Shown: positions 10,396 through 28,533 of the stretch, piece by piece
How positions within the stretch are numbered: position 1 is the first letter of the stretch
Layout: each line of letters opens with the position of its first letter
Assembly (NCBI GenBank): GCA_036963965.1
Contig: JBALTE010000011.1
Span: 9,150-73,149, forward strand
DNA from: Oceanicoccus sp.
Lineage (GTDB): Bacteria > Pseudomonadota > Gammaproteobacteria > Pseudomonadales > Dasaniaceae
DNA length: 64,000 nt
Direction: 5' to 3'
Position numbers and translations under genes: made by a program
The notes under the pieces: model-generated
Databases searched by the model: none
What the model saw: the letters and a program-made list of their open reading frames with translations, nothing else
Told to the model about the DNA's origin: nothing

Positions 10396-10460
10396 AACCC
10401 TTTCACTCCCATCAATTTCCAGTCATCATAACAAACACACCGGAATATGTAGGTTTTTAA

Positions 10461-10907: not shown

Positions 10908-11129
10908 CAACACTATTTGGACGGCATAGTATTTCACTTTAGAATTTTTAAACGGGGTTGCTCAGAGCTCGAATGGGTTGATAATTGGGGTGAAGCAAAC
11001 TTAGCCAGAGTTTTATGGTTATAGTGAATAATTGGCCCATCTGAGATACCTGATCTATGAGTCAGTACTTACATGTCTCTGGAATGATACAATTACCACA
11101 ATATATACCTGCTTCTCCAAGAGATTTTT

Positions 11130-11477: not shown

Positions 11478-11511
11478 GTTATCTCGTTTCCCAATTGTTG
11501 ATCTTACCTCT

Positions 11512-11638
11512 TTTAATGGCCAGCCAAGCTGGCTAGCAATTTCTGTGTTTTATCAATTTTGATAGGCTTGGCTAGATACCCATCTATCGCTGCGTCTAAA
11601 CATTGGTCTATATGTTCAGGCCGGCCATCAAAATGAGA
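11512..11638 (-). pseudogene. remnant of a response-regulator receiver domain (C-terminal ~40 codons only)
   Basis: The minus-strand translation SHFDGRPEHIDQCLDAAIDGYLAKPIKIDKTQKLLASLAGH* is the alpha4-beta5-alpha5 end of a REC domain (..AG.DGYL.KPI..). An in-frame TGA lies immediately upstream at 11639-11641, and no N-terminal part is present. Confidence 0.5.
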
Positions 11639-11753
11639 TCACAGAGGGTCTCCCGAGTATAAAGTCACTCACGACAAGTTTCATTTTTTAGGGATTATAA
11701 ACTGGCGCGCGCCTTCGGCGAGAGAGCGGTTGCTGTACTGTGAATGACTAGGT

Positions 11754-11792
11754 TAGAGTAGCCTGGAGAAGGGCGTTTGTTCCACTTATAGG
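11754..11792 (+). repeat. conserved intergenic motif, copy B
   Basis: TAGAGTAGCCTGGAGAAGGGCGTTTGTTCCACTTATAGG, 86 nt upstream of the SDR start at 11878. Confidence 0.6.
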
Positions 11793-11877
11793 CTCTAGAA
11801 ACACTTTCAGGAACGAGATTGATTGGAACGCGAAAACAGGGTTTTACAAACTAAGAATCATCACAAGGAGTTGGTCC

Positions 11878-12720
11878 ATGGGTAGATTAGACGGTAAAGT
11901 TGCCATTATTACTGGCGGTGCGAGTGGCATCGGTGAAGGTACAGTTAAGTTGTTTGTTGGCCATGGCGCGAAAGTTGTGATTGCCGATGTTCAGGATGAG
12001 GCGGGTGAACGCTTAGCCCTAGCGTTAGGTGAAAATGCAGTCTATCAGCACACGGATGTTTCTAAGGAAGCTGACATAGAAGCAATGATCAATGTTGCTA
12101 TGTCCAGATTTGGCAGACTTGATTGTCTGTTTAATAATGCAGGGTTCGGCGGTGTCAGCGGTGAGATCGATCAAATTGAACTTGGCGAGGATTATGACGC
12201 CACCATAGGGGTTATGTTTACCGGCGTCATGTTGGGTATGAAACATGCTGCGAAAATAATGAAAGAGCAAAAATCGGGCTCCATCATCAGTACAGCAAGT
12301 GTTGCAGCAATACAGGGTGGACTGGGTCCACACGTATATTCAGGTATTAAGGCCGGGGTGATTGGTTTGACCCAGTCGGTTGCGCTTGAACTGGCCGTCT
12401 TCGGTGTCAGAGTCAACGCTATTTGTCCGGGGGGCATCGCGACACCGATCTTTGCTCCTATGTTGGAAGATCAGCCATTAGGCGACAATGAAGATACTGC
12501 AACAAGAATGCGGCCAGTTCTGGCGGCAAGCACACCGATAGGCCGCTCCGGTGAACCTGATGATATTGGTCATATGGCAGTATTTCTCGCCAGCGATGAT
12601 TCGACCTTTGTGACAGGTCAGCATCTTTTAGTTGATGGTGGTTTATGTAGCATGCACTATCAGTCAGAGGGTGGTGGTATAGCTGACTTGGACATGAATA
12701 GCAGTGCTGATACCAAATAG
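11878..12720 (+). CDS. SDR family oxidoreductase
   Basis: TGGASGIG, NNAG and YSGIKAG (Y-x3-K) motifs. AAGGAG lies upstream. Confidence 0.85.
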   Translation: MGRLDGKVAIITGGASGIGEGTVKLFVGHGAKVVIADVQDEAGERLALALGENAVYQHTDVSKEADIEAMINVAMSRFGRLDCLFNNAGFGGVSGEIDQIELGEDYDATIGVMFTGVMLGMKHAAKIMKEQKSGSIISTASVAAIQGGLGPHVYSGIKAGVIGLTQSVALELAVFGVRVNAICPGGIATPIFAPMLEDQPLGDNEDTATRMRPVLAASTPIGRSGEPDDIGHMAVFLASDDSTFVTGQHLLVDGGLCSMHYQSEGGGIADLDMNSSADTK

Positions 12721-14398: not shown

Positions 14399-15628
14399 AT
14401 GGCTGAATCCGCTAGTGTAAAGAAATCCATCTGGCAGAACTCCAAATTTCTCGCCTATATGGGATCAACCACGTTCTATTCTGCTGGTTTTTCGATGCAG
14501 CAGCTCATTGTCAGCTGGCTATTGGTTGGTGTACTTGTATTGCCGGGTGATGAAGTTGGGCTGATACAAGCTGTTATCGGTATACCCGGTTTGTTTTTAA
14601 TGCTCTGGGGTGGAGCAAGTGCTGACAACAAAGACCCCCGGTCTATTCTTGTCAGTGTGTATTCAATCACCTGGCTGTTTCCGCTGATGCTAGTGGTTTG
14701 TATTTATTATGACCTGCTGAATATCTGGACGATTCTGCTGTTTGGACTTGCTGTCAGTACTGCGACTTCTTTTTCCAGTCCTGCCCAGCAGGCGATACTG
14801 AATCATGTTGCTGGTGGTGACATCCAAAAAGCGGTGACGGCTTCTACAGCTCTAGTGTTTCTGGTTCAAATGTTTTCACTTGGTTTTGCTGGCCAAATGG
14901 ACAAAATCGGCTTGAGCACCGTACTGGTTGTTCAGGCCGTGTGTATTTTACTCGGTGCTCTGATGATCATGCGGCTTAAAAAAACAGCGCCTTCACCTCA
15001 ACCACCGGGCGAGACGTCGTGGCACAGATTAATAAAGGGTTTCAGAGCAACCTACAATAACAAAAAAGTTTTTCACCTACTCGTCATCAACTTTATTTCC
15101 AGCGTTTTTAATGCCGGTGCATTTATGACCGTTGTACCGTTTGTGGTTAAGAGAGCGTACCAAGGGGATGCGCTTCAGCTCGCAACTATAATGATAATTT
15201 TCTATTTTGGCGCCACGTTAACTAATCTGGTTATGTTTAAAATTATGCCCATTGCTCGTCCAGGTCGTTGGTTTCTTGCGATGCAACTAAGTCGTGTCAT
15301 TATCTTGGTCTTGTTGTGGATAAAACCAGATTGGTGGTTATTGATCATCGCAATGTTTGCCTGGGGCTTAAATATGGGGGTAACAACCACACTATCCCGG
15401 ACGATTGTACAAGAGTCAGCAGAGCCCGAGTTCAGGGCAAGAATTCTGTCTGTTTATAGTTTGGGGCTTATTGGTAGCGCTCCAATTGGAGCAATTGTTC
15501 TCGGTAATATTATCGAGATATTTGGCACGCTTGAAGCACTGATTCCGGCCATGTTCGTTTCAGTTATTCTGTTTGTTTACGGTGTATTTTTCTCTCCCGT
15601 TTGGTCATATGCTTCACCGCGACATTGA
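14399..15628 (+). CDS. MFS transporter
   Basis: About 12 hydrophobic spans in 409 aa, with an EntS/MFS_3-like layout. Confidence 0.75.
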   Translation: MAESASVKKSIWQNSKFLAYMGSTTFYSAGFSMQQLIVSWLLVGVLVLPGDEVGLIQAVIGIPGLFLMLWGGASADNKDPRSILVSVYSITWLFPLMLVVCIYYDLLNIWTILLFGLAVSTATSFSSPAQQAILNHVAGGDIQKAVTASTALVFLVQMFSLGFAGQMDKIGLSTVLVVQAVCILLGALMIMRLKKTAPSPQPPGETSWHRLIKGFRATYNNKKVFHLLVINFISSVFNAGAFMTVVPFVVKRAYQGDALQLATIMIIFYFGATLTNLVMFKIMPIARPGRWFLAMQLSRVIILVLLWIKPDWWLLIIAMFAWGLNMGVTTTLSRTIVQESAEPEFRARILSVYSLGLIGSAPIGAIVLGNIIEIFGTLEALIPAMFVSVILFVYGVFFSPVWSYASPRH

Positions 15629-15806
15629 TAACGCTTCAGTGAACCAGCGAGATGTTATAAGCGGAAAGTTGCGGGAATATTGGCTAGTACATCGATGACT
15701 TGACACGGAGCTGATTTATGGCACTTTCGAACGCTTCGATTCTATTGTTACAATTCGATTATCACTATTCATACGTCCACCAGGCTTTATTGTACGTGAC
15801 CATAGA

Positions 15807-16040
15807 ATGAATATTTTTGTGCTCGACCAAACTATAAAAACCTGTGCCCAGTTTCATTGCGACCAGCATGTCAGCAAGATGATAGGCGCGCGTTTTGAGT
15901 CTATTGGCTTGACGCCCTTTGCCCAGGCAATGCCGGAGTCTTATAAAATTGCAGATGATCCGGTGGCGGCCGATCGAGACTTTTATTGCGGTGAAAAAGC
16001 AGACTTTGCAACATGGAAAAAACGCAAATCTCCAGACTGA
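15807..16040 (+). CDS. hypothetical protein, possibly an internally deleted remnant
   Basis: The N-terminus MNIFVLDQTIKTCAQFHCDQHVSKM and the C-terminus YCGEKADFATWKKR resemble the two ends of a longer conserved family I cannot name with certainty. The middle appears missing. Confidence 0.3.
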   Translation: MNIFVLDQTIKTCAQFHCDQHVSKMIGARFESIGLTPFAQAMPESYKIADDPVAADRDFYCGEKADFATWKKRKSPD

Positions 16041-16290
16041 TGGTTGCCGCCCACTACTGCGTAATGGCTGCACCGAGATTCGATCTTTGCTTTCCCTTGT
16101 TTAAAGTAGTGTATTAGGTTGAATATTTCGGCTACAGTGGACAAAAAAAGAGCAACAATTTTTCTATACCCTCAATCCAGATCAATGCAACAAATCCGTG
16201 ATATATGATCCGAAAGCGGTGATCGACAGGAGATGAGGTGAATATTTGGCAATACAATCACAGTTATTCTGCGAGAGGGGCGAACAAACA

Positions 16291-16764
16291 ATGGCAACAC
16301 TAAAAGTAAACGGTAAAGTAATCGAGGTGGACGTCGAAGGTGATACGCCCTTGTTATGGGTGATTCGCGAACAAATTGGACTCACTGGTACTAAATATGC
16401 CTGCGGCATTGCTCAGTGCGGTTCGTGTACCGTGCACATAGATGGCCGTCCAGTACGGTCCTGTGTTTATCCTGTCGCGGGTGTTACCGCGGACCAAGAA
16501 ATCACTACTATCGAAGGCCTTTCAGAAGAAGGTGATCATCCGGTTCAGCAAGCGTGGGCAGAACTTGATACGCCACAATGCGGTTACTGCCAGTCCGGTA
16601 TGATTATGGCGGCGGCAGCACTGCTTGATAAAACACCGAACCCGAGTGATGAGAATATCAATAGTGAAATTACCAATATTTGTCGTTGCGGCACGTTTCA
16701 GCGAGTACGAGAAGGTATTCACCTCGCAGTAGAAATCAAACATAAGTCTGCAGCGAAGGTTTAA
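16291..16764 (+). CDS. (2Fe-2S)-binding small subunit of a xanthine-oxidase-family molybdenum hydroxylase (IorA-like)
   Basis: Two cluster motifs are present: C-G-x-x-x-C-G-x-C (CGIAQCGSC) and CGYCQSG...CRCG. The ATG at 16291 gives the typical MATLKVNGK start. Confidence 0.85.
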
Positions 16765-16770
16765 GGGGAG

Positions 16771-18963
16771 ATGACTATGGCACAGGAAAAAATGCGTATA
16801 AATCGGCGTCAGTTTGTTATTGGAGCAGCCTCAACGGGTGCTGGACTATCGATTGGATTGGCTCTGCCTATGGGTGCTCAGAAGGCTTTTGCAGACGACC
16901 ACAGTGAATCGTCGACACAGGAAGTTAACGCCTGGGTTGTTATCGATCCTGATGACACGGTAACCATTAGAATTGCAAGATCTGAAATGGGGCAGGGTAC
17001 GCTAACAGGTCTTGCGCAATTGGTGGCGGAAGAGTTGGAATGTGATTGGGATAAAGTGCAGTGGGAATACCCAACCCCGGGAGAAAATTTAAAGCGCGGG
17101 CGTGTTTGGCAAAGTTTTGCCACTGGGGGCAGTCGCGGTATCCGCGGCAGCCATCAGTACGTGCGCGAAGGTGGTGCCATGGCCCGAGAAATGTTGATTG
17201 AGGCGGCTGCCAAAAAATGGGGTGTGGTCGCTGCGGACTGTACCGCAGCTGATAGCAGAATAACCCATTCACCGTCGGGAAAAACGACCACATTCGGTAA
17301 AGTAGCAAACGCTGCTGCTGGTTTAACCCCACCCAGTGAAGTAACGCTAAAAGATCCCAAGACGTGGAAAGTTATTGGCAAACCCAAGAAGCGTCTCGAC
17401 ACGTTAGAGAAATTAACGGGTAAACAAATCTACGGCGCGGATATTACGATGCCAGGTATGCTTAATGCTTCTATAAAGGCCTGCCCCGTTCACGGCGGTA
17501 AACTTGAGTCGTTTGACGCTGAAAAAGTGAGCTCAATGCCGGGGGTGAAATCTGTTATTGCCGTGGGTGATGACGCCGTTGCTGTAGTAGCTACAACATG
17601 GTGGCAGGCCAATAAAGCGTTAAATGCGCTGCCGATCACATGGGACAAAGGTGAGAATACCAAGGTGTCGAGCGCGTCAATCGACAAGTTTTTGCAAGAG
17701 GGACTTTCTGCCGATAATGCTTTTGTGGGAAATAAAGTCGGTGATGTGAAAGCAGGGCTGAAAAAGGCGTCACGTACTTACACTGCTGATTACAGTTACC
17801 CCTACCAAAATCACGCAACTATGGAACCGATGAATGCAACAGCGGTTTGGAGCAAAGAGCGTTGTGAAGTTTGGTGTCCCACGCAAAATGGTGAGGCAGC
17901 TTTGGCTGCGACCATTAGTGCCTCGGAATTGTCCTCCGAAAAATGTGATGTACACAAAGTGAGTCTCGGTGGTGGTTTTGGGCGGCGCGGCGCAACTGAC
18001 TTTGTCACACAGGCCGTGTTAATTGCTAAAACCATGCCCGGTATCCCTGTAAAGCTGCTGTGGACCCGTGAAGAGGATATGCTTCAAGGTATGTTTCATC
18101 CCGTGACCAAGGCCAGAATGACTGCTGGCTTTGATGACGACGGAAATTTGGATGCTTTACATGTGCGTATTTCCGGTCAGTCGATTCTGGCGACGCTAAT
18201 GCCTCAGGCAATAGAGAGCAACGACGGTATGGACCCCGTTGTTTTTCAGGCGATGGCCCCGGAAGGAGATCATGCTATTTCTTATACTGTGCCAAATTTG
18301 TTGGTAGACCATGCCATGCGTAATACACATATTACGCCTGGCTTCTGGCGTGGTGTAAATGTCAATCAAAATGCGATTTATATGGAGTGTTTTTTGGATG
18401 AAGTGGCGCATGAGTCCGGTCAGGATGCGCTGGCTTTCAGGCAGAAGGCAATGAAAAACCATCCTCTCGCCCTGGCGGTATTAAATAAGGCAGCATCGAT
18501 GGCTGGGTGGGGGAAACCTGCGCCGGAAGGTAGACACCTTGGCTTGGCTGTTTGTAAAGCCTTTGGCAGTTATGTGGCTGCTTGTGCCGAAATATCTGTG
18601 GATCAGGGCGAATTGACTATCCACCGTATTTTTGCGGCCACCGACCCCGGGTATGCGGTAAATCCTCAACAGATTGAGGCTCAGGTATCCGGTTCTTTTG
18701 TCTATGGTTTGTCAGCGCTGCTTTACGGGGAGTGCACTGTAAAAGACGGCCAGATCGAACAGCAAAATTTTCATGAATACCCCTCGCTAAAAATGGCGAA
18801 AATGCCGCATGTTGAGACATCAGTTATGCCATCCGGTGGATTCTGGGGTGGTGTTGGTGAGCCAACGATTGCTGTTGCTGCTCCTGCGGTGCTGAATGCT
18901 ATATTTGCAGCAACTGGGAAGCGTATTCGTCATTTGCCGATAAAGAATCAAATCCTTGGGTAG
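16771..18963 (+). CDS. molybdopterin-binding large subunit (IorB / aldehyde-oxidase-like) with a Tat signal
   Basis: Twin-arginine signal INRRQFVIGAAS. The 730-aa length and GGGFGRRG motif are typical of the aldehyde oxidase/xanthine dehydrogenase Mo-binding domain. Confidence 0.85.
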   Translation: MTMAQEKMRINRRQFVIGAASTGAGLSIGLALPMGAQKAFADDHSESSTQEVNAWVVIDPDDTVTIRIARSEMGQGTLTGLAQLVAEELECDWDKVQWEYPTPGENLKRGRVWQSFATGGSRGIRGSHQYVREGGAMAREMLIEAAAKKWGVVAADCTAADSRITHSPSGKTTTFGKVANAAAGLTPPSEVTLKDPKTWKVIGKPKKRLDTLEKLTGKQIYGADITMPGMLNASIKACPVHGGKLESFDAEKVSSMPGVKSVIAVGDDAVAVVATTWWQANKALNALPITWDKGENTKVSSASIDKFLQEGLSADNAFVGNKVGDVKAGLKKASRTYTADYSYPYQNHATMEPMNATAVWSKERCEVWCPTQNGEAALAATISASELSSEKCDVHKVSLGGGFGRRGATDFVTQAVLIAKTMPGIPVKLLWTREEDMLQGMFHPVTKARMTAGFDDDGNLDALHVRISGQSILATLMPQAIESNDGMDPVVFQAMAPEGDHAISYTVPNLLVDHAMRNTHITPGFWRGVNVNQNAIYMECFLDEVAHESGQDALAFRQKAMKNHPLALAVLNKAASMAGWGKPAPEGRHLGLAVCKAFGSYVAACAEISVDQGELTIHRIFAATDPGYAVNPQQIEAQVSGSFVYGLSALLYGECTVKDGQIEQQNFHEYPSLKMAKMPHVETSVMPSGGFWGGVGEPTIAVAAPAVLNAIFAATGKRIRHLPIKNQILG

Positions 18964-18994
18964 GGTGATATCGGCATTAGATAGCGATTATCTT

Positions 18995-19321
18995 ATGCGT
19001 TTACTCCGACAGTGTTTGGTTATTGGTTTTTTTGCCAGCGTGTTGTTTCCGCCTGTTTATGCCAGCGATCTACTAACGCAGGCCAGCGCCAATGTAAGTG
19101 CCTGTAGTAGTTGCCATCGTGGCGGTATGGGGAGCGGCGGTATGGCAGGCAGTGGAACCCAGGTAATGGGTGCGCTTAATACATTGTCGGCGGCAAGCAT
19201 CGAGGAAGCGCTGTTGCAATTTCGTTCTGGTGAGCGTGAAGGGACAGTGATGAATCGTTTGGCCCGCGGCTATTCGGACTCGGAAATCGCTGGGATGGCG
19301 AAAGTATTGGCAAGCCAGTGA
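18995..19321 (+). CDS. monohaem c-type cytochrome (FccA/SoxE-like small cytochrome)
   Basis: A signal peptide is followed by a single CSSCH haem motif and the C-terminal MNRLARGYSDSEIAGMAKVL. The start could instead be TTG 18956, which overlaps the previous gene. Confidence 0.7.
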   Translation: MRLLRQCLVIGFFASVLFPPVYASDLLTQASANVSACSSCHRGGMGSGGMAGSGTQVMGALNTLSAASIEEALLQFRSGEREGTVMNRLARGYSDSEIAGMAKVLASQ

Positions 19322-20592
19322 CCCATTTGAATCGTCGCGACATTGTTAAGGGGCTGCTGCTGGCGATGACAGCGGGGGTGGGCGCTAGTTGTGCATCCAC
19401 AAAGGGTTCATCAGCTCGAGTCGTTGTTGTTGGTGGTGGGTTTGCCGGTATGAGCTGTGCTCGTACTTTAAAAAAGTTGTCGCCAACACTGGCGGTGACA
19501 TTAGTTGAACCCAAACAAAGTTATATTGCCTGTCCGTTTAGTAATCTGGTTATTGGTAATCAGCGCAATATTGCTTCCCAGACATTTAGTTACATCGCTG
19601 CAGTTGCCGATGGTGTGACCCATATTAGACGGACGGCTGTTGCTGTTGATCCCGATGCTCATAACGTCACGCTGGATGATGGCCAAGTTCTTGGTTACGA
19701 CAGATTGGTTCTGGCCCCTGGCATTAGCCTTGATTTCGAAGTTTTACCCGGCTATGACGAGGCCGCAGCGAATGACATGCCTCACGCGTGGCTGGCGGGA
19801 ACACAAACGACACTGCTCGCACGGCAACTCGCGGCTATGGATGATGGCGGTACTGTTGTTATATCGGTGCCTGAAAACCCGTATCGCTGTCCACCCGGTC
19901 CATACGAACGTGCTAGCCTCATTGCAAATTATCTTCAAGTGTACAAACCCAAAAGCAAATTGTTGATACTCGACAGTAAAGATCGCTTTTCAAAACAAGC
20001 GCTTTTTATGGCTGCGTGGAAATCGGAATTTGGAGACCTGATTGAGTGGCAGGGACTCAAAGACGGCGCCAGAGTTGTTTCAGTTGATTCAGCGGCGATG
20101 ACGTTAACAACGGATTTTGACGTAATCAAAGCGGATGTAGCGAATGTGATTCCTCCCCAGCGGGCGGGAAAAATTGCCAGAATTAGTGACGTCGCCAATG
20201 CAAGCGGTTGGTGTCCAATAAGTGCATCGACTTTCGAGTCGAGTCTACATGCTGATATTCATGTTATTGGTGATGCCGCCATAGCCAATGCCATGCCAAA
20301 GTCGGCTTTTGCCGCCAATAGCCAGGCCAAGCTCTGTGCCTTACAAATTGCCAGATTGCTGAGCGGTCAAACCCCCGTTGATAGTAAATTAATTAATACG
20401 TGTTACAGCTTAGTAACCCCGGATTACGGAATTTCTGTAGCGGGAGTCTACAAACCAGAAGCAGAGCGCTGGCTTGAAGTTGAAGGCGCAGGAGGCGTTA
20501 GTGGCGCATCTGCACCAAGAGATGTTAGACGGGTAGAGGCTCATTATGCGCGCCAATGGTATAAGTCAATTACACAAGAGGTGTTTGGTTGA
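19318..20592 (+). CDS. fccB: flavocytochrome c sulfide dehydrogenase flavoprotein subunit-like (FccB/SoxF-like), Tat-exported
   Basis: Tat-like NRRDIVKG, an FAD fold (VVVVGGGFAG) and the redox CPFSN...YRCPPGPYERAS motifs. The GTG start overlaps the upstream stop (GTGA). Confidence 0.8.
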   Translation: MTHLNRRDIVKGLLLAMTAGVGASCASTKGSSARVVVVGGGFAGMSCARTLKKLSPTLAVTLVEPKQSYIACPFSNLVIGNQRNIASQTFSYIAAVADGVTHIRRTAVAVDPDAHNVTLDDGQVLGYDRLVLAPGISLDFEVLPGYDEAAANDMPHAWLAGTQTTLLARQLAAMDDGGTVVISVPENPYRCPPGPYERASLIANYLQVYKPKSKLLILDSKDRFSKQALFMAAWKSEFGDLIEWQGLKDGARVVSVDSAAMTLTTDFDVIKADVANVIPPQRAGKIARISDVANASGWCPISASTFESSLHADIHVIGDAAIANAMPKSAFAANSQAKLCALQIARLLSGQTPVDSKLINTCYSLVTPDYGISVAGVYKPEAERWLEVEGAGGVSGASAPRDVRRVEAHYARQWYKSITQEVFG

Positions 20593-21011
20593 TTCGCGTT
20601 TGTGCTTTTTTTTTGGTGCTCCTTCAGAATTCTATTAGTATAGCCTTTGCAGAAGATCGGGAAGATGCACTTACGTCGGAGCCGGGCCGATATGCTGTTG
20701 GTCAGAAGGTTTTTAACGATCGTGACAGAGGACATTGTTTGTTATGCCATCGGTTCAGCCGCAGCGACGAATCCTTTCAGGGTACTATCGGACCTTCGCT
20801 CGATGGTATTGCAACCAGATTGACCGCGCAGCAAATAAGGTATCGGATAGTTGATAATAGTCGGATGAATTCTCAAACGCTGATGCCCGCGTACTTTCGA
20901 ACGGACGGGCTTGTGCAGGTTGCAGCTGAATTTGTCGGGAAGACGATCTTATCGGCCCAAGATATTGAAGACCTCGTCGTTTATCTTGTTTTCGATCCGC
21001 AAGAACAGTAG
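20589..21011 (+). CDS. soxX: SoxX-like monohaem cytochrome c
   Basis: A signal peptide, a single CLLCH motif, then GPSLDG and a distal MPAY Met ligand region. The TTG start overlaps the fccB stop. Confidence 0.7.
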   Translation: MIRVCAFFLVLLQNSISIAFAEDREDALTSEPGRYAVGQKVFNDRDRGHCLLCHRFSRSDESFQGTIGPSLDGIATRLTAQQIRYRIVDNSRMNSQTLMPAYFRTDGLVQVAAEFVGKTILSAQDIEDLVVYLVFDPQEQ

Positions 21012-21032
21012 TACGTTGATGATGGAGCCACG

Positions 21033-21473
21033 ATGAAAAGGCGAACAGTAATAGTGGGTGCGGCCGTCGGTCTCGCTGTCCAGTTAGCGCCAACAGTCTT
21101 TGCCGGTAAGCTCAAAAAAACGGTGTCTGAATTTTATCGTCAAGAGACTATAACTGTCGGCAAAGTCCGTCTCAAAATACCGCCTCTAGCAGAAAATGGG
21201 AATTCTGTTTCTTTGGCGGTTGAAGTTGATAGTCCAATGACCGACGAAAACTATGTGCAAGAGATTCGAATTTTTGCCGATAAAAACCCGGTGCCAAACC
21301 TCGCTAGTTATCGGCTTTCCCCGGGCTCAGGCAAAGCTAAAGTGGCAACCAGAATTCGATTGTCAAATTCTCAGGTTATAACTGCTGTGGCGCGTATGAA
21401 TGATGGCACGCTGTGGTCGGGCTCTGCTAAAACAATAGTTACGCTGGCGGCTTGTGTCGAGCCACTACTTTAG
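21033..21473 (+). CDS. SoxY-related sulfur-carrier protein with a non-canonical C-terminal arm (..TLAACVEPLL)
   Basis: Tat-like signal (MKRRTVIVGAAVG) and the SoxY core (LKIPPLAENGNSVSLAVEV). The single C-terminal Cys codon is at 21453-21455, in AACVE rather than GGCGG. Confidence 0.75.
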   Translation: MKRRTVIVGAAVGLAVQLAPTVFAGKLKKTVSEFYRQETITVGKVRLKIPPLAENGNSVSLAVEVDSPMTDENYVQEIRIFADKNPVPNLASYRLSPGSGKAKVATRIRLSNSQVITAVARMNDGTLWSGSAKTIVTLAACVEPLL

Positions 21474-21481
21474 GCAATGTG

Positions 21482-21808
21482 ATGAAAGTAAGAATTTCTA
21501 TTCCCCCGCAGGCTGATAGAGGAGAGTTCCTCGAAATTAAGACGCTTGCTTCACATCCGATGCATAGTGGTTTCAGGCGCGATGCGATTGGCGCATTAGT
21601 CCCTCGAGATATTATTGAAATCTTTCGTTGTGAATACAATGAGAAAATTATTTTTGAAGCCGAGTTTGGACCGGGCACTGCTGCAAACCCCTTTCTATCA
21701 TTTTACATTCGCGCTGAAAAAACGGGTGAGGTAAAATTCACCTGGATTGATCAGCACGGAAAAAAGACCGAAGAAATTAAATTTCTCGACGTTGTGGATA
21801 AACATTGA
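21482..21808 (+). CDS. soxZ: SoxZ-like protein
   Basis: MKVRISIPPQADRGEFLEIKTLASHPMHSGFR is the typical SoxZ N-terminus. The protein is about 108 aa and immediately follows the SoxY-like gene. Confidence 0.8.
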   Translation: MKVRISIPPQADRGEFLEIKTLASHPMHSGFRRDAIGALVPRDIIEIFRCEYNEKIIFEAEFGPGTAANPFLSFYIRAEKTGEVKFTWIDQHGKKTEEIKFLDVVDKH

Positions 21809-22584
21809 TGAAAGTGGGGCGTTTGCTGTTTTCGCTGCTCATCATTGTCGAGATGACGGTGGCAATAGCATCCGACATTAAATTGTCACCGCGATCGGGC
21901 TATGAATTTCAATCTATTGATACACAGTCCATGCAAGAGGATGATTTTGAAAACCCTGGTATGTTGTGGGTTGATATGGGTGAGCTTTACTATAACGAGC
22001 CAGCGGGAAAAATGGATCAATCTTGCGCTGATTGTCATGGAGAATTCCCCAAGTCGCTGGCGACGTCGTTTCCGAAAAACAACCACCATCTCGAAGCTGT
22101 TGTGAATCTGACCTCGCAGATCCAGCATTGCAGAACAGTGCACCAGAAGGCAGAACCTATTGATTATGAAAGTGAAACATCGCTAGCGTTGACTGTATAC
22201 CTTGCTAGTCGGGCGCGTGGGGAAATGGTTAATCAGATCGATAGTTCTCCGGTCGATCAGCTAAAGGCGTCAATCGAAAACGGTCGCGTTTACTTTCATC
22301 AGCGTAAGGGGCAGCTCAATCTTAGCTGCAGAAATTGTCATGATAGCAGTGTGGGGAAGATGTTACGGGGGGACTTGATTAGCCAGGGGCAGAGTAACGG
22401 TTACCCAATCTATCGATTAGAGTGGCAATCTCTCGGTTCTCTCCATCGTCGATTTCGCTCCTGTGATATCGGTGTGAAAGCACAAGCACAAGCACTTGGT
22501 AGTAGTATTTATATTAACCTGGAAGCGTATCTAAAAGAGAGGGGTGGTGATTTGCTTATTGAAACACCGGCGGTTCGGCGTTAG
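21808..22584 (+). CDS. soxA: SoxA-like dihaem cytochrome c
   Basis: Signal peptide, two CxxCH motifs (CADCH, CRNCH) and the conserved distal Cys region LHRRFRSCD. The start ATG shares one nucleotide with the soxZ stop. Confidence 0.8.
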   Translation: MKVGRLLFSLLIIVEMTVAIASDIKLSPRSGYEFQSIDTQSMQEDDFENPGMLWVDMGELYYNEPAGKMDQSCADCHGEFPKSLATSFPKNNHHLEAVVNLTSQIQHCRTVHQKAEPIDYESETSLALTVYLASRARGEMVNQIDSSPVDQLKASIENGRVYFHQRKGQLNLSCRNCHDSSVGKMLRGDLISQGQSNGYPIYRLEWQSLGSLHRRFRSCDIGVKAQAQALGSSIYINLEAYLKERGGDLLIETPAVRR

Positions 22585-22624
22585 CTGATATGGCCTAAGG
22601 TATTAACTTGGGTTTGTAGGTTAA

Positions 22625-22650
22625 GGTAGCAAACCATAGGGCTTGCTACC
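22625..22650. terminator. stem-loop between convergent genes
   Basis: GGTAGCAA (22625-22632) pairs with TTGCTACC (22643-22650) around a 10-nt loop. It lies between the soxA stop and the convergent 22737 stop. Confidence 0.45.
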
Positions 22651-22736
22651 TCACTGACCATACGCACTACCAATCGGATAAATCGGTAGCGCGCTAGCCT
22701 TCTATTGACTAAAAGACTTTCGGTTTTGGTAGCAGA

Positions 22737-23897
22737 CTACTCTTCTATTGAAAAAGTAAGGCCTGCATTTTCTTCAAGTCGTTTGATCAATTCAGGTCCC
22801 ATGGACGAGGCTGTTGTCCAGCACCCACCGCTGGTGCGATCTTTGGATATGTCGAGAGCTAAACAAACAGCACTTTCGGCCAGCATTTTACTAGTCGATC
22901 CATAGCCAGGGTCCATATCACCTTTGACGCAAGCTTGTAATTTTTCACCATCATCATTCGAGCCAACAAAGATAATGTCATAATACCCGGCTTTGCGTTC
23001 TTCCCGGGATGGGCCATCACCGGGTTTTAGATTTGCATCCATTGCAAATGGGTCAGCCGCAGCTTTATCTGCTTGTGCTGGGTCGCCGGGCAACATCATC
23101 ATTTCATCATATTGTAAATCTTCACCCCATTGATGCTGCATGAGATAATTTGAGCGATGCACAGCTTTAGTATTGATCATAGCCATCATAAAAGGTCCAA
23201 CCCAGCTTTCCACCGCTTCATCATAATAAGGCTGATTGCCATCTGGTTGTGCTGGACCTTCAAAACCTGGAGTTTGTGCGAAAGGTGACACTAAAAGACC
23301 CATGATGGATGGGTCTTTCTGGACCGCTGCGGTAGTTGCATTTCCAGAAGCAACAGTACCACCAGAGGCACTCCCCTTCATGTCACGCACGCGTCCACGA
23401 ATACGAGGCAAAACATGTCCCAGACGTGTTTTGGCTTGTTCTTGTAAATAGAAAACACCTAAGTCAGTTGGAATTGAGTCAAATCCGCAAGAGAATACAA
23501 TGCGCGCACCTGATTTTGCGGCACTGTCATTAAGACCAGTGACCTGCTGAGCGATCCAGTTGGGTTCGCCACACAAATCGACATAATCTGTACCAGCATT
23601 TGCGCAGGCTGCAATAACTTTATCGCCATAAAGTTGGTAAGGACCAACTGTCGTGATCAAAACTTTGGTCTTCTCTACCATCGCTCTCACTTCATCGTCA
23701 TTGTTGGAATCACATACGACAAGCGGTGTATCCGCCGGGGCGCCGATGGCATCACGGACTTCTTCCAGTTTGCTTTTAGATCGACCAGCCATGCCCCATT
23801 TAATGTTCGTGCCGTATTGTTCCGTCATATATTCTGCAACAAGTTTGCCTGTAAAACCCGTTGCGCCATAAATCAATATATCAAATTCTCTGACCAT
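22737..23897 (-). CDS. saccharopine dehydrogenase-like NAD(P)-binding family protein
   Basis: N-terminal Rossmann motif ILIYGATGFTGKLVAEY. The 386-aa length matches this family. Confidence 0.75.
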   Translation of the reverse strand: MVREFDILIYGATGFTGKLVAEYMTEQYGTNIKWGMAGRSKSKLEEVRDAIGAPADTPLVVCDSNNDDEVRAMVEKTKVLITTVGPYQLYGDKVIAACANAGTDYVDLCGEPNWIAQQVTGLNDSAAKSGARIVFSCGFDSIPTDLGVFYLQEQAKTRLGHVLPRIRGRVRDMKGSASGGTVASGNATTAAVQKDPSIMGLLVSPFAQTPGFEGPAQPDGNQPYYDEAVESWVGPFMMAMINTKAVHRSNYLMQHQWGEDLQYDEMMMLPGDPAQADKAAADPFAMDANLKPGDGPSREERKAGYYDIIFVGSNDDGEKLQACVKGDMDPGYGSTSKMLAESAVCLALDISKDRTSGGCWTTASSMGPELIKRLEENAGLTFSIEE

Positions 23898-26151: not shown

Positions 26152-26829
26152 ATGCCAAAATTTGCAACAGGTGTGATTCGCTTTCAAAACGAAGTCTATC
26201 CACAGAAGAAAGAACTGTTTGAGAAACTGAGTAAAGGTCAGGCACCAGAAGCGCTTTTTATCACCTGTTCTGATTCCAGAATAGAAACCGCGATGATCAC
26301 ACAAACAGATCCTGGCGAACTTTTTATCTGTCGTAACGCCGGAAATATTGTCCCTCCCCACATGACTCAAGCGGGCGGCATGACAGCCTCGATTGAATTC
26401 GCAGTGGCAGCACTCGAGGTGCCACACATTGTGATTTGCGGTCATACAGAATGTGGCGCAATGAAAGGCGCAATGGACCTTGATAGCCTGGCATCCTTGC
26501 CTCACGTAAAGGAATGGTTAAGTTACACCAAAGCCGCCGTTGATGTTGTCGACGCAATCGCACCAGAAGGCGCTAGTGATGAAACTCGTATGCAATTATT
26601 ACTTGAACAGAACGTCATATTGCAACTCCAGCACCTGAAAACTCATCCAAGTGTTGCCGCCAGATTGGCGAAGGGAAACCTGAGGCTTCACGGCTGGGTC
26701 TATGATATCAAGACCGGTGACGTAAAAGCATTTGATGAAGTCGAAAATAAATTCGTTCCGGTTGACGCTCGTTATGCAAAAGAGGTTGCCGCAATGGCTG
26801 CTGCGTCAGCGTCAGGCTGTTCTGACTGA
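26152..26829 (+). CDS. beta-class carbonic anhydrase
   Basis: CSDSR and HTECGA zinc-ligand motifs with typical spacing. Confidence 0.9.
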   Translation: MPKFATGVIRFQNEVYPQKKELFEKLSKGQAPEALFITCSDSRIETAMITQTDPGELFICRNAGNIVPPHMTQAGGMTASIEFAVAALEVPHIVICGHTECGAMKGAMDLDSLASLPHVKEWLSYTKAAVDVVDAIAPEGASDETRMQLLLEQNVILQLQHLKTHPSVAARLAKGNLRLHGWVYDIKTGDVKAFDEVENKFVPVDARYAKEVAAMAAASASGCSD

Positions 26830-26865
26830 TCCACACCAATCAACACAACAAGTCCTTAAGGAGTA

Positions 26866-28533
26866 ATGTTCGTGAAATTTTTTGACTTTTCCAATATTCG
26901 TGGTGATATTTTTGGCGGGCTTACGGCGGGTATTATTGCTTTGCCACTCGCTTTGGCGTTTGGTGAGGCGTCTGGAGCCGGACCAATCGCTGGCATCTGG
27001 GGAGCGATTTTTGTTGGATTTTTTGCGTCTCTTTTTGGGGGTACCGGTTCTAACGTATCTGGTCCTACGGGGCCAATGGTTGTCGTTTTTGCCGGTATCT
27101 TTGCAACCCTGACCGGGAATCCGGCGCTTGTTTTTGCTGCGGTTGTATTGGCTGGTGTGTTGCAGATTTTGTTGGGTGTTTTCAAAATGGGCCAGTATAT
27201 CCGGCTGGTTCCATACCCGGTTGTATCAGGTTTTATGAGCGGTATTGGTTGCATCATTATTGCACTGCAACTGTCTCGCATATTCGGTCATGAACCGGAC
27301 GGTGGTGGCACGATACCTGCGCTGACAGCCATCCCTGGCGCGGTGATGGACCCGAATATGGCCGCATTGGTCATCGGCATTCTTACTCTGACAGTTATAT
27401 TCTCGTGGCCAAAGAGCCTTGGGAAAATGATTCCAGCACCACTGGCGGCACTGGTGATTGGTACCGTAACCAGTTTGTTCATCAGCGGCGCGCCAATTCT
27501 AGGCGCTATTCCTACCGGCTTTCCATCGCTGGTAATACCTGAATTCACGTCGGCTACCTTTGCCATCGTACTTGAGGCTGCAATCCTGCTCGCAGTTCTG
27601 GGGGCGATAGATAGCCTTCTGACCTCACTGGTTGCAGATAACATGACCCGAACACGGCATGATTCAGACAAAGAGCTGATTGGACAAGGTATCGGTAATA
27701 CATTTGCAGGGCTTTTCGGTGCAATTCCAGGTGCCGGCGCGACCATGAGGACCGTTGTAAACATTCGAACAGGAGGACAAACAAAGATATCCGGGATGAT
27801 CCACGCAGGCTTACTACTGTTAATCGTTGTCAGCCTATCGCCCCTTGCCTCACAAATTCCCCACGCAGTATTAGCGGGCATTCTGATCAAAGTTGGATAC
27901 GATATTATTGATATCGGTTATCTCAAGCGGGCCCACAAAGGCCCACGATTAGACCTCGTATTGATGGCGATGGTGCTGTTGCTGACTGTATTTGTTGACC
28001 TGATCACGGCGGTAGCAGCAGGTGTAGTGCTTGCCGCGCTTGCTTTCGTTAAGCAACTTGCAGACGAGCAGCTGAGACAATTTGGGGATCCGAGTGATGC
28101 GGCCTCAGAGTCTACCCCTGAAGAGCTTGAACTCCTTGCTAAAGCAAAGGGACAGGTAACAATCTTTGAGTTTGGTGGGCCATTAAGTTTTGGTGCAGCA
28201 GCTGATATGGGTCACACTGTACGAGAACGAACCAAGAAAAAATCTGCAGCAATCATTCTGGATTTTTCCAAGGTGCCCTTTATCGATGTGTCAGCAAGTC
28301 GCGCAGTGGAAACGATAATAACCGACGCTACGGCTGCGGGAAAAACAGTCTACGAAACAGGCATGAGTGATTCAGTAAGAAGCATCCTTATTGGCTTGAA
28401 TGAAGAAGATAATTTCCATGTTATCACCAGCCACAACAATCGTCTGGAAGCATTGCGCGCTGCGGTTGAGGATACGCTTGGACGGGTAAAAGACGGCGGT
28501 CCAGATAAACCAGAAACCGATTCTACGGGCTAA
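26866..28533 (+). CDS. SulP family anion transporter with a C-terminal STAS domain (BicA-like)
   Basis: N-terminal DIFGGLTAGIIALPLALAF, multiple TM spans and a C-terminal STAS-like region (VTIFEFGGPLSFGAA). Confidence 0.85.
   Translation: MFVKFFDFSNIRGDIFGGLTAGIIALPLALAFGEASGAGPIAGIWGAIFVGFFASLFGGTGSNVSGPTGPMVVVFAGIFATLTGNPALVFAAVVLAGVLQILLGVFKMGQYIRLVPYPVVSGFMSGIGCIIIALQLSRIFGHEPDGGGTIPALTAIPGAVMDPNMAALVIGILTLTVIFSWPKSLGKMIPAPLAALVIGTVTSLFISGAPILGAIPTGFPSLVIPEFTSATFAIVLEAAILLAVLGAIDSLLTSLVADNMTRTRHDSDKELIGQGIGNTFAGLFGAIPGAGATMRTVVNIRTGGQTKISGMIHAGLLLLIVVSLSPLASQIPHAVLAGILIKVGYDIIDIGYLKRAHKGPRLDLVLMAMVLLLTVFVDLITAVAAGVVLAALAFVKQLADEQLRQFGDPSDAASESTPEELELLAKAKGQVTIFEFGGPLSFGAAADMGHTVRERTKKKSAAIILDFSKVPFIDVSASRAVETIITDATAAGKTVYETGMSDSVRSILIGLNEEDNFHVITSHNNRLEALRAAVEDTLGRVKDGGPDKPETDSTG

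What the first reader, a model, noticed from the sequence alone, without database searches (positions are those of the whole stretch)
21033..21473. SoxY-like carrier with an AACVE swinging arm instead of GGCGG
The protein has the SoxY fold signature and a Tat-type signal. It ends ..AKTIVTLAACVEPLL, with the Cys codon at 21453-21455, rather than the invariant ..GGCGG-COOH. From memory, NCBIfam/TIGRFAM has a family named SoxY-related AACIE arm protein whose function is not established. The bulkier, charged arm and the three extra residues after it (PLL) would change how SoxXA, SoxB or other partners access the carrier Cys. This argues for a different substrate or partner set.
Basis: partly seen in the sequence, partly recalled or inferred. 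Interest (0 to 1): 0.6.

Follow-up and report, generated by a model that had tools for sequence, protein, structure and literature searches.

The report
Variant SoxY carrier tied to molybdoenzyme
This gene encodes a real, conserved variant of the bacterial sulfur-carrier protein SoxY whose cysteine arm reads AACVE instead of GGCGG. It belongs to a catalogued but never-tested family that always sits next to a periplasmic molybdenum enzyme, and here it is the only SoxY in a genome that lacks the usual thiosulfate-oxidation enzyme SoxB.

Summary
ORF 21033-21473 encodes a 146-aa, twin-arginine-led SoxY-fold protein ending VTLAACVEPLL, with Cys141 at 21453-21455.

- **Family.** Its best family is NCBIfam TIGR04487, "SoxY-related AACIE arm protein". 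It scores 168.7 bits, 3 bits under the curated cut-off of 172. True SoxY scores only 94.8 against a cut-off of 125.
- **Arm.** The arm is conserved in all 120 closest homologues.
- **Operon.** The gene is sixth in a tight eight-gene operon: IorA-like 2Fe-2S, Tat-exported xanthine-oxidase-family Mo subunit, cytochrome c, FccB, SoxX, SoxY', SoxZ, SoxA. This order recurs in 80 loci, most of them Pseudomonadota.
- **Independence from canonical Sox.** No SoxB or GGCGG SoxY was found in this genome. The same holds for 28 of 50 other module-bearing genomes.
- **Linkage.** In an unselected sample of 401 genomes, all 14 AAC-arm genes lie within 2.2 kb of the Mo-enzyme orthologue. All 17 other SoxY hits have GGCGG-type arms.
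- **Partners.** SoxA, FccB and the Mo subunit keep their catalytic residues.
- **Function.** It is untested. A 2013 paper on Starkeya novella noted a similar second sox cluster and found it barely expressed.
- **Most likely role.** A dedicated carrier that presents sulfur cargo, loaded by SoxXA, to the Mo enzyme in place of SoxB/SoxCD.

This scan has reported the same family before on other DNA (37 earlier notes).

The parts
16246..16764 (+). IorA-like [2Fe-2S] small subunit of a xanthine-oxidase-family enzyme. The probable true start is the ATG at 16291 (MATLKVNGK). It has no signal peptide, so it is presumably exported bound to the Tat-led large subunit.
   Evidence: Pfam Fer2_2 and Fer2. 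NCBIfam gives only sub-threshold matches to the small subunits of various Mo hydroxylases. 58-78% identical and in the same position in 68 of 80 loci.
16771..18963 (+). IorB-like molybdopterin-binding large subunit with a twin-arginine leader (MRINRRQFVIGAAS).
   Evidence: Pfam MoCoBD_1 and MoCoBD_2. The best solved relative is 8gy3_C, large subunit of an aldehyde dehydrogenase (E 1.1e-75); the GVGEP glutamate motif aligns with GLGEP of that chain. No NCBIfam equivalog is reached. Module orthologues in other classes are 52-79% identical, against 30-40% for four paralogues in the same genome. It forms a clade of its own (branch 0.94, support 99).
18956..19321 (+). Small mono-haem c-type cytochrome (CSSCH), the FccA-like partner of FccB. 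An alternative start is the ATG at 18995.
   Evidence: A CxxCH motif is in the translation. There is no Pfam or NCBIfam hit. A homologue lies between IorB and FccB in many loci. tblastn found neither it nor FccB in the six-gene forms L092, L093 or in L035.
19318..20592 (+). FccB/SoxF-type flavoprotein of flavocytochrome c sulfide dehydrogenase, with a twin-arginine leader.
   Evidence: Pfam FCSD_central (160.7 bits) and FCSD-flav_bind (88.8 bits). Cys72 is kept in 69/78, Cys191 in 78/78 and Cys362 in 77/78 module sequences. Assigning these to the FAD-linking Cys and the redox-active pair is from memory of the Allochromatium enzyme.
20589..21011 (+). SoxX, a mono-haem cytochrome c.
   Evidence: NCBIfam TIGR04485 72.1 bits, over the cut-off of 61. 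CxxCH is conserved in about 79 of 82 sequences. It lies directly upstream of SoxY' in 79 of 80 loci.
21033..21473 (+). SoxY' carrier protein, the finding itself. It has an RR leader, a SoxY beta-sandwich and the C-terminal arm VTLAACVEPLL.
21453..21455 (+). TGT codon of Cys141, the presumed cargo-carrying cysteine.
   Evidence: Read. It aligns with the carrier Cys of solved SoxY chains and is invariant in the 28-sequence alignment.
21482..21808 (+). SoxZ partner subunit (108 aa, start MKVRIS).
   Evidence: NCBIfam TIGR04490 87.3 bits, over the cut-off of 76. Pfam SoxZ. Matches 2ox5_Z at E 7.6e-22; its single Cys aligns with the Cys of Paracoccus SoxZ.
21805..22584 (+). SoxA, a di-haem cytochrome c with a cysteine-ligated catalytic haem.
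   Evidence: NCBIfam TIGR04484 184.7 bits, over the cut-off of 110. Matches 1h31_A at E 2.1e-41. Both CxxCH motifs, Cys220, Arg204 and Arg216 are invariant in 74 module SoxA sequences; Arg218 is kept in 71/74.

Best explanation
The gene encodes SoxY', the cysteine-arm carrier subunit of a self-contained periplasmic module. It is not part of the classical thiosulfate-to-sulfate Sox pathway.

Shown here:
- SoxY' has the SoxY fold and the homologous carrier cysteine.
- It is co-transcribed in tight or overlapping register with SoxZ, SoxX, SoxA, FccAB and a Tat-exported xanthine-oxidase-family Mo/2Fe-2S enzyme.
- The AAC-arm gene was never found away from that enzyme's orthologue.
- The module occurs with or without SoxB and canonical SoxYZ.
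- Each partner keeps its catalytic residues.

Inferred:
- SoxY'Z forms a heterodimer like SoxYZ.
- SoxXA oxidatively joins a sulfur anion to Cys141. The anion would be thiosulfate-like, or sulfide-derived sulfane supplied by FccAB.
- The arm then delivers this cargo into the Mo enzyme, which takes the place of SoxB/SoxCD as the processing enzyme. Electrons leave through the 2Fe-2S clusters and the c-type haems.
- The change from GGCGG to AAC(V/I/L)(E/D) reflects release from the need to fit SoxB and adaptation to the new partner.

The chemical identity of the cargo and of the Mo-catalysed step is unknown.
For: - **Fold and carrier Cys:**
- **Family:** TIGR04487 is the best match, and the arm is conserved in 121 of 121 sequences.
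- **Operon:** eight ORFs with 4- or 8-base overlaps or gaps of 6, 8 and 21 bases.
- **Synteny:** the same gene order recurs in 80 loci from Alpha-, Beta- and Gammaproteobacteria, a Methylomirabilis MAG and an Acidobacteria MAG. No other flanking gene is conserved.
- **Own genome:** one SoxY-like gene and no SoxB at 99.2% completeness.
- **Other module genomes:** 28 of 50 have neither true SoxB nor GGCGG SoxY, and the two always co-occur.
- **Unselected sample of 401 Pseudomonadota genomes:** 14 of 14 AAC-arm genes lie 0.45-2.15 kb from the Mo-subunit orthologue on the same strand. All 17 other hits end in GGCGG-type arms.
- **Mo subunit:** a separate orthogroup with 58-65% identity across classes, against 41% or less for the next-best hits and 30-40% for own paralogues. 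It is supported by a long, well-supported branch.
- **Catalytic residues:** SoxA keeps its Cys ligand and two arginines in 74 of 74 sequences, FccB keeps its cysteines, and the Mo subunit keeps the GEP glutamate.
- **Selection:** a six-gene form is retained in 1.7-1.9 Mb genomes, which argues for selection.
Against: - No experiment links SoxY' to the Mo enzyme.
- Xanthine-oxidase-family enzymes are known (from my own knowledge of the family) for hydroxylating sp2 carbon and oxidising CO, not for acting on protein-bound sulfur. The proposed step has no precedent.
- Three of 16 Mo-subunit orthologues in the unselected sample lack SoxY'Z nearby: two stand alone and one keeps only SoxXA. The enzyme can therefore persist without the carrier, although these rows are nested in the module clade and the two stand-alone ones have long end branches.
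- In Starkeya novella the comparable cluster was barely expressed on thiosulfate, methanol or glucose (PMC3797975). I did not check its SoxY2 arm.
- SoxA's thiosulfate-binding arginines are intact, so the loaded anion may simply be thiosulfate, which gives no obvious role to a hydroxylase.
- No release step is identified in the absence of SoxB.
Confidence: 0.55

Rival explanations
1. The Sox part is a sulfur-acceptor or detoxification accessory. The Mo enzyme oxidises a free sulfur-bearing carbon compound, such as a thiocarbonyl or thiocyanate-type substrate. The sulfur atom released is caught as a persulfide on SoxY' Cys141 and then handled by SoxXA and FccAB.
For: The dependence is one-sided. 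AAC-arm SoxY was never found without the Mo enzyme (14 of 14), whereas the enzyme's orthologue occurs without SoxY'Z in 3 of 16 genomes. FccAB, a sulfide-handling enzyme, accompanies most loci. Carbon hydroxylation is the chemistry this enzyme family is known for.
Against: No substrate is indicated by any conserved neighbouring gene, transporter or regulator. The stand-alone enzymes are derived losses with long branches. SoxA keeps a site built for an oxyanion such as thiosulfate.
Confidence: 0.15
2. SoxXA serves mainly as the three-haem electron outlet of the Mo enzyme, like the cytochrome subunit of membrane aldehyde dehydrogenases. SoxY'Z has a regulatory or protective role rather than carrying a pathway intermediate.
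For: The closest solved relative is the large subunit of an aldehyde dehydrogenase complex (8gy3). From memory, not checked here, that complex includes a multi-haem cytochrome c subunit. SoxA plus SoxX supply three haems. One genome keeps IorAB-SoxX-SoxA without SoxYZ. In the six-gene form no other cytochrome gene lies between or beside the six genes.
Against: The catalytic Cys ligand and the substrate-binding arginines of SoxA are invariant in 74 sequences, which a pure electron carrier would not need. SoxY' Cys141 and its arm are invariant.
Confidence: 0.1
3. It is a spare or alternative SoxYZ/SoxXA isoform of ordinary thiosulfate oxidation, or a relic without function, as was suggested for the second sox cluster of Starkeya novella.
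For: SoxZ, SoxX and SoxA pass NCBIfam's equivalog cut-offs for the true proteins. Expression of the S. novella cluster was very low. B. diazoefficiens soxY2 is dispensable for thiosulfate oxidation; whether that gene has an AAC arm was not checked.
Against: 28 of 50 module genomes, and this one, have no SoxB and no canonical SoxY, so there is no pathway to be spare for. The arm, the gene order and the catalytic residues are conserved across classes and in streamlined genomes. The link to the Mo enzyme is strict.
Confidence: 0.07
4. It is a periplasmic maintenance system. SoxY' carries a persulfide, made with FccAB or SoxXA, that restores the labile terminal sulfido ligand on the Mo centre of the exported enzyme.
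For: The same one-sided dependence applies. Xanthine-oxidase-family enzymes need a Mo=S ligand that is easily lost, which is general knowledge of the family. A peptide arm carrying sulfane sulfur is a plausible donor.
Against: Five genes is a large investment for repair. Most periplasmic enzymes of this family have no such partners; the four paralogues in this genome were found with an IorB query only and their neighbourhoods were not examined. There is no precedent.
Confidence: 0.06

Closest known systems
NCBIfam/TIGRFAMs TIGR04487 (SoxY_para_1), 'SoxY-related AACIE arm protein'
   Same: It is the best-scoring family (168.7 bits, aligned over model positions 2-146). The arm logic is the same (AAC, then an aliphatic residue, then an acidic one), as are the length and the RR leader.
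   Different: The protein scores 3.3 bits under the curated cut-off of 172, so NCBI's rule would not give it the name. Its tail is CVEPLL, a form shared by its closest homologues and by gammaproteobacterial MAG loci. In the unselected sample only 8 of 14 AAC-arm genes pass the cut-off. The family has no established function.
Canonical SoxYZ of Paracoccus pantotrophus and Thermus thermophilus (PDB 2ox5, 2oxg, 4uwq)
   Same: The fold is the same (TM 0.82) and the carrier cysteine is homologous. It has a SoxZ partner with E 7.6e-22 to 2ox5_Z, and it is encoded with SoxXA.
   Different: The arm is AACVEPLL, not GGCGG. It scores below the cut-off of the true-SoxY model (94.8 against 125). There is no SoxB in the genome and no SoxCD in the operon. 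It is linked to a xanthine-oxidase-family enzyme instead.
Second sox cluster of Starkeya novella (soxX2Y2Z2A2F2, Snov_1982-1977, plus xanthine-oxidase-family Mo enzyme Snov_1975/1976; Kappler et al. 2013, PMC3797975)
   Same: The gene content as described is the same: SoxXA, SoxYZ, a SoxF-like flavocytochrome and a xanthine-oxidase-family Mo enzyme in one operon, without SoxB or SoxCD.
   Different: S. novella also has a complete canonical sox cluster, which this genome lacks. I did not fetch the S. novella sequence, so its SoxY2 arm is unverified here. That paper found almost no expression and proposed no role.
Large subunit of an aldehyde dehydrogenase complex, PDB 8gy3 chain C (from memory: the membrane-bound enzyme of an acetic acid bacterium)
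   Same: It is the closest solved relative of the module's Mo subunit (E 1.1e-75, aligned over residues 6-725). It has a Tat leader and the GEP glutamate motif, and it pairs with a small 2Fe-2S subunit without an FAD subunit.
   Different: The score is only 258.6 bits over about 720 aligned residues, a distant match. Here the neighbours are Sox proteins and FccAB, and the substrate is unknown.
NCBIfam TIGR04557, quinoprotein dehydrogenase-associated SoxYZ-like carrier
   Same: It is another SoxYZ-type carrier recruited to a non-Sox periplasmic dehydrogenase. SoxY' gives a weak hit (65.6 bits) and SoxZ a weaker one (41.4 bits).
   Different: That family is a fused SoxY-SoxZ protein tied to PQQ enzymes. 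Both scores are far below its cut-off of 140.

Membership tests
NCBIfam TIGR04487 (SoxY-related AACIE arm protein) | Whole-protein HMM score at or above the curated cut-off (172 bits) | tested here: not met
   168.7 bits, E 6.8e-50; 167.9 bits in the six-frame genome search. This is a near miss. In an unselected sample, 6 of 14 proteins with the arm and the same gene context also fall below the cut-off. I therefore treat it as the same orthologous group by motif and synteny, not by NCBI's naming rule.
NCBIfam TIGR04487 (SoxY-related AACIE arm protein) | C-terminal arm of the AACIE type in place of GGCGG | tested here: met
   The protein ends ...VTLAACVEPLL. All 121 sequences have [APG]AC followed by L/V/I/T (118/121) and E/D (106/121).
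NCBIfam TIGR04487 (SoxY-related AACIE arm protein) | Best match among the SoxY-type models | tested here: met
   TIGR04487 168.7 bits, TIGR04488 94.8 bits, TIGR04557 65.6 bits.
Canonical SoxY (NCBIfam TIGR04488, SoxY_true_GGCGG) | HMM score at or above 125 bits | tested here: not met
   94.8 bits; 93.7 bits in the genome search.
Canonical SoxY (NCBIfam TIGR04488, SoxY_true_GGCGG) | GGCGG C-terminus | tested here: not met
   The C-terminus is AACVEPLL, and no alternative frame gives GGCGG.
Canonical SoxY (NCBIfam TIGR04488, SoxY_true_GGCGG) | Works with SoxB (SoxB present in the genome) | tested here: not met
   No TIGR04486 match in a genome 99.2% complete. In 50 other module genomes, true SoxB and GGCGG SoxY co-occur in 22 (one SoxB cut by a contig end) and are both missing in 28.
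SoxY superfamily (Pfam PF13501) | SoxY domain and fold with the conserved carrier cysteine | tested here: met
   PF13501 103.5 bits. Cys141 aligns with the carrier Cys of 4uwq_B and 2ox5_Y. Foldseek best hits are Paracoccus SoxY.
Mo-enzyme-linked Sox module (IorAB-[FccAB]-SoxX-SoxY'-SoxZ-SoxA), not a curated family | AAC-arm SoxY encoded within a few kb of the orthologous xanthine-oxidase-family Mo subunit, with SoxX, SoxZ and SoxA | tested here: met
   Window genes span 16246-22584. The same order recurs in 80 loci. The link holds in 14 of 14 cases in an unselected 401-genome sample.
Mo-enzyme-linked Sox module (IorAB-[FccAB]-SoxX-SoxY'-SoxZ-SoxA), not a curated family | Covalent cargo on Cys141 and its processing by the Mo enzyme | not testable with these tools
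   This needs protein biochemistry and mass spectrometry.

The most novel reading that the evidence does not exclude
A xanthine-oxidase-family molybdenum enzyme works on a substrate tethered to the cysteine arm of a carrier protein. This would be a SoxB- and SoxCD-independent branch of periplasmic sulfur (or organosulfur) oxidation, carried as a mobile six-to-eight-gene cassette by hundreds of aerobic heterotrophs. It would be the first protein-tethered substrate for this enzyme family, and it would mean that many 'partial sox' annotations in soil and sea bacteria stand for a different pathway.
Probability: 0.35. Interest if true: 0.8.

Novelty: new member of a known kind. Interest (0 to 1): 0.45.

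Why it matters
- **Annotation.** SoxX, SoxZ and SoxA of this module pass NCBI's cut-offs for the true thiosulfate-oxidation proteins, and JGI names SoxY' simply 'SoxY'. Genomes like this one would be read as partial thiosulfate oxidisers although no SoxB was found. More than half of the module-bearing genomes examined are in that position, so surveys that count sox genes as markers of thiosulfate oxidation are likely inflated.
- **Biology.** The strict pairing of a carrier-protein arm with a xanthine-oxidase-family enzyme points to chemistry not described for either system. The module occurs in several classes of bacteria, sits on a plasmid in one case, and is kept in genomes as small as 1.7 Mb.
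- **Test system.** This genome is a clean background for a test because the module is its only SoxY system.

Tried and rejected
- **Sequencing error or frameshift at the 3' end:** rejected from the three reading frames and from identical arms in independent assemblies.
- **Independent read support:** Logan contigs of three DNA runs were laid on 20589-22584, but none covers 21433-21473 usefully, so they add nothing. No RNA holder was listed.
- **Promoter and terminator scan of 15600-22800:** counts were at the level of shuffled sequence, so it was uninformative.
- **GC profile:** the operon (0.46-0.51) resembles its flanks, giving no sign of recent transfer.
- **Conserved regulator, transporter or maturation gene beside the module:** none was found. 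Outside the eight genes, clusters reach at most 21 of 80 loci and are lineage-specific synteny or antisense shadow ORFs. The MFS gene at 14399-15628 is not conserved.
- **Neighbours of the two stand-alone Mo-enzyme orthologues:** an ABC transporter, a formamidase-family gene, XdhC, HdeA and a histidine kinase gave no clue to the substrate.
- **Literature:** 'AACIE' occurs in no paper of the library. The 2024 SoxY-expansion paper discarded sequences without 'GGC'. A 2026 Sox-evolution paper counts about 1,300 soxY paralogues outside its clusters without assigning a function. 'Isoquinoline 1-oxidoreductase' occurred in none of the 20 best-ranked papers of the search that combined it with sox gene names.
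- **Conserved Cys of SoxZ as a module-specific feature:** rejected, because Paracoccus SoxZ has it too.
- **SoxC-type gene on contig C9 as part of the system:** it lies elsewhere, preceded by its own cytochrome and close to a TauE gene. It is more simply a separate sulfite dehydrogenase.
Full report
**1. The observation**

The ORF at 21033-21473 on the + strand translates to 146 residues, MKRRTVIVG...AKTIVTLAACVEPLL, followed by TAG. The two other frames across the 3' end read RWRLVSSHYF and AGGLCRATTLG, so no single frameshift yields GGCGG.

Pfam assigns the SoxY domain at 103.5 bits. phmmer against solved structures finds SoxY of Thermus (4uwq_B, E 4.9e-13) and Paracoccus (2ox5_Y), and Cys141 aligns with their carrier cysteine. 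An AlphaFold2 model built on 28 homologues has pLDDT 83 and forms a beta sandwich whose residues 141-146 average pLDDT 61. Foldseek returns Paracoccus SoxY as the best match, with TM 0.82 on the target. The RR pair at positions 3-4 is invariant among homologues. This fits a Tat leader, but I ran no signal predictor.

**2. Family**

The protein scores 168.7 bits against it, just under the curated cut-off of 172. It scores 94.8 bits against the true-SoxY model TIGR04488, whose cut-off is 125. By NCBI's rule it would therefore not receive the name. By best match, motif and gene context it belongs to the same group.

The 120 closest homologues in a 5.8-billion-protein collection all carry the arm. 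The pattern is [VI]T[LIM][APG]AC, then L/V/I/T (118 of 121), then E/D (106 of 121), with a tail of 3-6 residues after the cysteine. Proteins from other assemblies at 95% and 88% identity end in the identical LAACVEPLL. This disposes of a sequencing error.

**3. The operon**

Eight ORFs on the + strand run from 16246 to 22584. Four junctions overlap by 4 or 8 bases and the other three have gaps of 6, 8 and 21 bases:

| Gene | Coordinates | Key evidence |
|---|---|---|
| IorA-like 2Fe-2S subunit | 16246-16764 | Pfam Fer2_2, Fer2 |
| Mo subunit of the xanthine-oxidase family, classic RRQFV Tat leader | 16771-18963 | Pfam MoCoBD_1, MoCoBD_2 |
| Small CSSCH cytochrome | 18956-19321 | CxxCH in translation |
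| FccB-type flavoprotein | 19318-20592 | FCSD_central 160.7 bits |
| SoxX | 20589-21011 | 72.1 bits, cut-off 61 |
| SoxY' | 21033-21473 | see sections 1-2 |
| SoxZ | 21482-21808 | 87.3 bits, cut-off 76 |
| SoxA | 21805-22584 | 184.7 bits, cut-off 110 |

The Mo subunit reaches no NCBIfam equivalog. Its closest solved relative is the large subunit of an aldehyde dehydrogenase (8gy3_C, E 1.1e-75), and its GVGEP motif aligns with GLGEP of that chain. That this glutamate is the catalytic base of the family is from my own knowledge.

**4. The module is conserved**

A scan of one genome per species returned at least 578 relatives. The best 80 loci were fetched with 10-kb flanks, and tblastn with the eight window proteins shows the same order in essentially all of them. 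The hosts include Bradyrhizobium, Methylobacterium, Microvirga (on a plasmid), Hyphomonas, Henriciella, Pseudolabrys, Rhodoplanes and gammaproteobacterial MAGs, plus one betaproteobacterial, one Methylomirabilis and one Acidobacteria MAG. Shortfalls occur mainly where contigs end.

All-against-all clustering of every ORF in these loci finds only the eight genes conserved: SoxY' in 80, SoxX 79, FccB 78, SoxZ 78, SoxA 74, Mo subunit 73, cytochrome 71 and 2Fe-2S 68 loci. The remaining large clusters are antisense shadow ORFs. Nothing else exceeds 21 loci, and there is no shared regulator or transporter.

The two Mo-enzyme subunits are the best-conserved parts, at 52-79% identity. SoxY' is 45-62% identical and SoxA 37-58%.

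**5. Independence from the classical pathway**

The window's genome (3.86 Mb, 99.2% complete) has a single SoxY-like gene, this one, and no SoxB. A SoxC-type sulfite dehydrogenase lies on another contig, preceded by a cytochrome c gene and about 3.9 kb from a TauE-family gene. I read it as a separate sulfite dehydrogenase.

In 50 other genomes that carry the module, true SoxB is present in 21, plus one copy cut by a contig end. GGCGG SoxY is present in exactly those 22. The other 28 have neither.

**6. An unselected test of the link**

I searched 401 evenly drawn Pseudomonadota genomes with the Mo subunit and with TIGR04487. The Mo subunit gives a clearly bimodal result. Sixteen genomes have hits at 58-65% identity and 914-1062 bits. 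The next-best hits are at or below 41% identity and 547 bits. The window's own genome holds four paralogues at 30-40%.

Fourteen TIGR04487 hits (the window's own and 13 others) reach the end of the model. Each lies 0.45-2.15 kb from the Mo-subunit orthologue on the same strand. Apart from the window's own eight-gene operon, seven have the eight-gene spacing and six a six-gene spacing without FccAB. I fetched the 17 remaining hits, and all end in GGCGG-type arms: 15 VTIGGCGG, one SGCGG and one GGCSG. The AAC arm and the Mo enzyme therefore go together in 14 of 14 cases, and GGCGG SoxY never does.

The reverse is not strict. One genome has IorAB-SoxX-SoxA without SoxYZ, and two have IorAB alone. 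In a maximum-likelihood tree the module's Mo subunits are split from the own-genome paralogues by a branch of 0.94 (support 99). The three exceptions are nested inside that clade, and the two stand-alone rows have long end branches, as expected for secondary loss. The SoxXA-only case is sister to a full-module locus with support 100. The window's gammaproteobacterial group sits among alphaproteobacterial rows, which points to transfer between classes.

tblastn found the small cytochrome in neither the six-gene loci L092 and L093 nor L035, all of which also lack FccB. It is therefore FccA-like.

**7. Are the partners catalytically competent?**

Grabarczyk et al. 2015 (PMC4423706) report that the cysteine haem ligand, one arginine shared with TsdA, and a further arginine are invariant in SoxA and positioned to bind thiosulfate. 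In the alignment to Rhodovulum and Paracoccus SoxA, the window protein keeps the YRL arginine, the RF..C arginine and the cysteine. Across 74 module SoxA sequences, both CxxCH motifs, Cys220, Arg204 and Arg216 are invariant, and Arg218 is kept in 71. Mapping these positions to the paper's residue names is my inference.

FccB keeps Cys72 (69/78), Cys191 (78/78) and Cys362 (77/78). The single Cys of SoxZ is shared with Paracoccus SoxZ and is not a special feature.

**8. Literature**

The string 'AACIE' occurs in no paper of the library. Kappler et al. 2013 describe a second sox cluster in Starkeya novella, soxX2Y2Z2A2F2 plus a xanthine-oxidase-family Mo enzyme. Its SoxAX and SoxYZ were not detected by proteomics, its transcripts were very low on glucose, methanol and thiosulfate, and the authors suggested it might lack a role under those conditions. 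I did not verify the arm of that SoxY2.

In Bradyrhizobium diazoefficiens only soxY1, not soxY2, is needed for thiosulfate oxidation. Again the arm of soxY2 was not checked here. A 2024 study of SoxY diversification removed sequences lacking 'GGC'. A 2026 study counts about 1,300 soxY paralogues outside sox clusters without assigning a function.

Earlier notes of this scan describe the same family and its Mo-enzyme link in at least 35 other genomes, and gave me the lead to the 2013 paper. I re-derived the link independently here.

**9. How it most likely works**

Shown:
- the carrier fold and the homologous cysteine;
- the operon;
- the strict AAC-arm/Mo-enzyme link;
- independence from SoxB;
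- conserved catalytic residues in every partner.

Inferred:
- SoxY'Z is loaded at Cys141 by SoxXA with a sulfur anion. This would be thiosulfate-like, given SoxA's intact arginines, or sulfide-derived sulfane via FccAB.
- The cargo is then processed by the Mo enzyme in place of SoxB/SoxCD.
- The Gly-to-Ala change and the added acidic residue reflect release from the SoxB channel and fit to the new partner.

The weak point is chemistry. This enzyme family is known for carbon hydroxylation, no release step is evident, and three enzyme orthologues survive without the carrier.

Rivals are that the Sox part catches sulfur released by the enzyme from a free sulfur-bearing carbon compound, that SoxXA is chiefly the enzyme's haem outlet, that the system restores the enzyme's Mo=S ligand, or that it is a redundant isoform. 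The last is disfavoured by sections 5 and 6.

**10. Verdict**

This is a genuine, conserved member, by motif and context, of a catalogued but untested family. It is not a new kind of element. Its value lies in the open function, in the annotation trap it sets for sox-based inference, and in this genome being a clean background with no canonical Sox carrier or SoxB.

Noticed in passing
G000 contig C9:142802-143992 (-), locus L088 6776-8011 (-), outside the window: A SoxC-type molybdenum sulfite dehydrogenase (485 bits, over the TIGR04555 cut-off of 420). It is preceded by a 194-aa cytochrome c gene and lies about 3.9 kb from a TauE/SafE sulfite-exporter-family gene. The genome has no SoxB and no GGCGG SoxY. 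It is probably a stand-alone periplasmic sulfite dehydrogenase and could be a sink for sulfite.
   Followed up: partly
G000 C10:60208-62382, C1:178072-180255, C14:77859-79925, C9:163745-165916: Four further IorB-like Mo-subunit paralogues in the same genome, 30-40% identical to the module's subunit. The C9 copy is matched in three pieces within one 766-codon open frame. Their contexts were not examined.
   Followed up: no
L090 (G274:C1:2347000-2366000), genes at 7783-11916: A variant locus with IorA-IorB-SoxX-SoxA and no SoxY or SoxZ detected by tblastn. Its Mo subunit is sister to that of a full-module locus (L078). It suggests a direct functional tie between the Mo enzyme and SoxXA.
   Followed up: partly
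L092 (G288, 1.7 Mb genome) 7189-11924, and G348 (1.9 Mb): A six-gene form of the module (IorA-IorB-SoxX-SoxY'-SoxZ-SoxA, no FccAB) is kept in very small, closed genomes of the same GTDB class as the window's organism.
   Followed up: partly
L043 (Microvirga sp. M2 plasmid unnamed1, NZ_CP134064.1) 5249-11549; tree: The whole module sits on a 1.9-Mb plasmid in one Microvirga strain. The gammaproteobacterial Mo subunits, including the window's, nest among alphaproteobacterial ones. Both points indicate that the cassette moves between lineages.
   Followed up: partly
window 26152-28533 (+): A beta-class carbonic anhydrase gene (26152-26829) is followed at 26866 by a SulP-family permease with a STAS domain. 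This is a common pairing, and no link to the sox module was shown.
   Followed up: no
window 21805-22584 (SoxA), residues 203-208: Module SoxA proteins carry a near-invariant YRLEWQ next to the active-site arginine (E in 71/74, W in 74/74, Q in 73/74). The two solved canonical SoxA sequences read YRLKNA and YRLKDS. This charge reversal beside the catalytic pocket might relate to the altered arm.
   Followed up: partly
window 21452-21481: The longest ORF for SoxZ starts at a TTG at 21452, inside the end of soxY'. The start that matches homologues is the ATG at 21482 (MKVRIS), 8 bases after the soxY' stop.
   Followed up: yes
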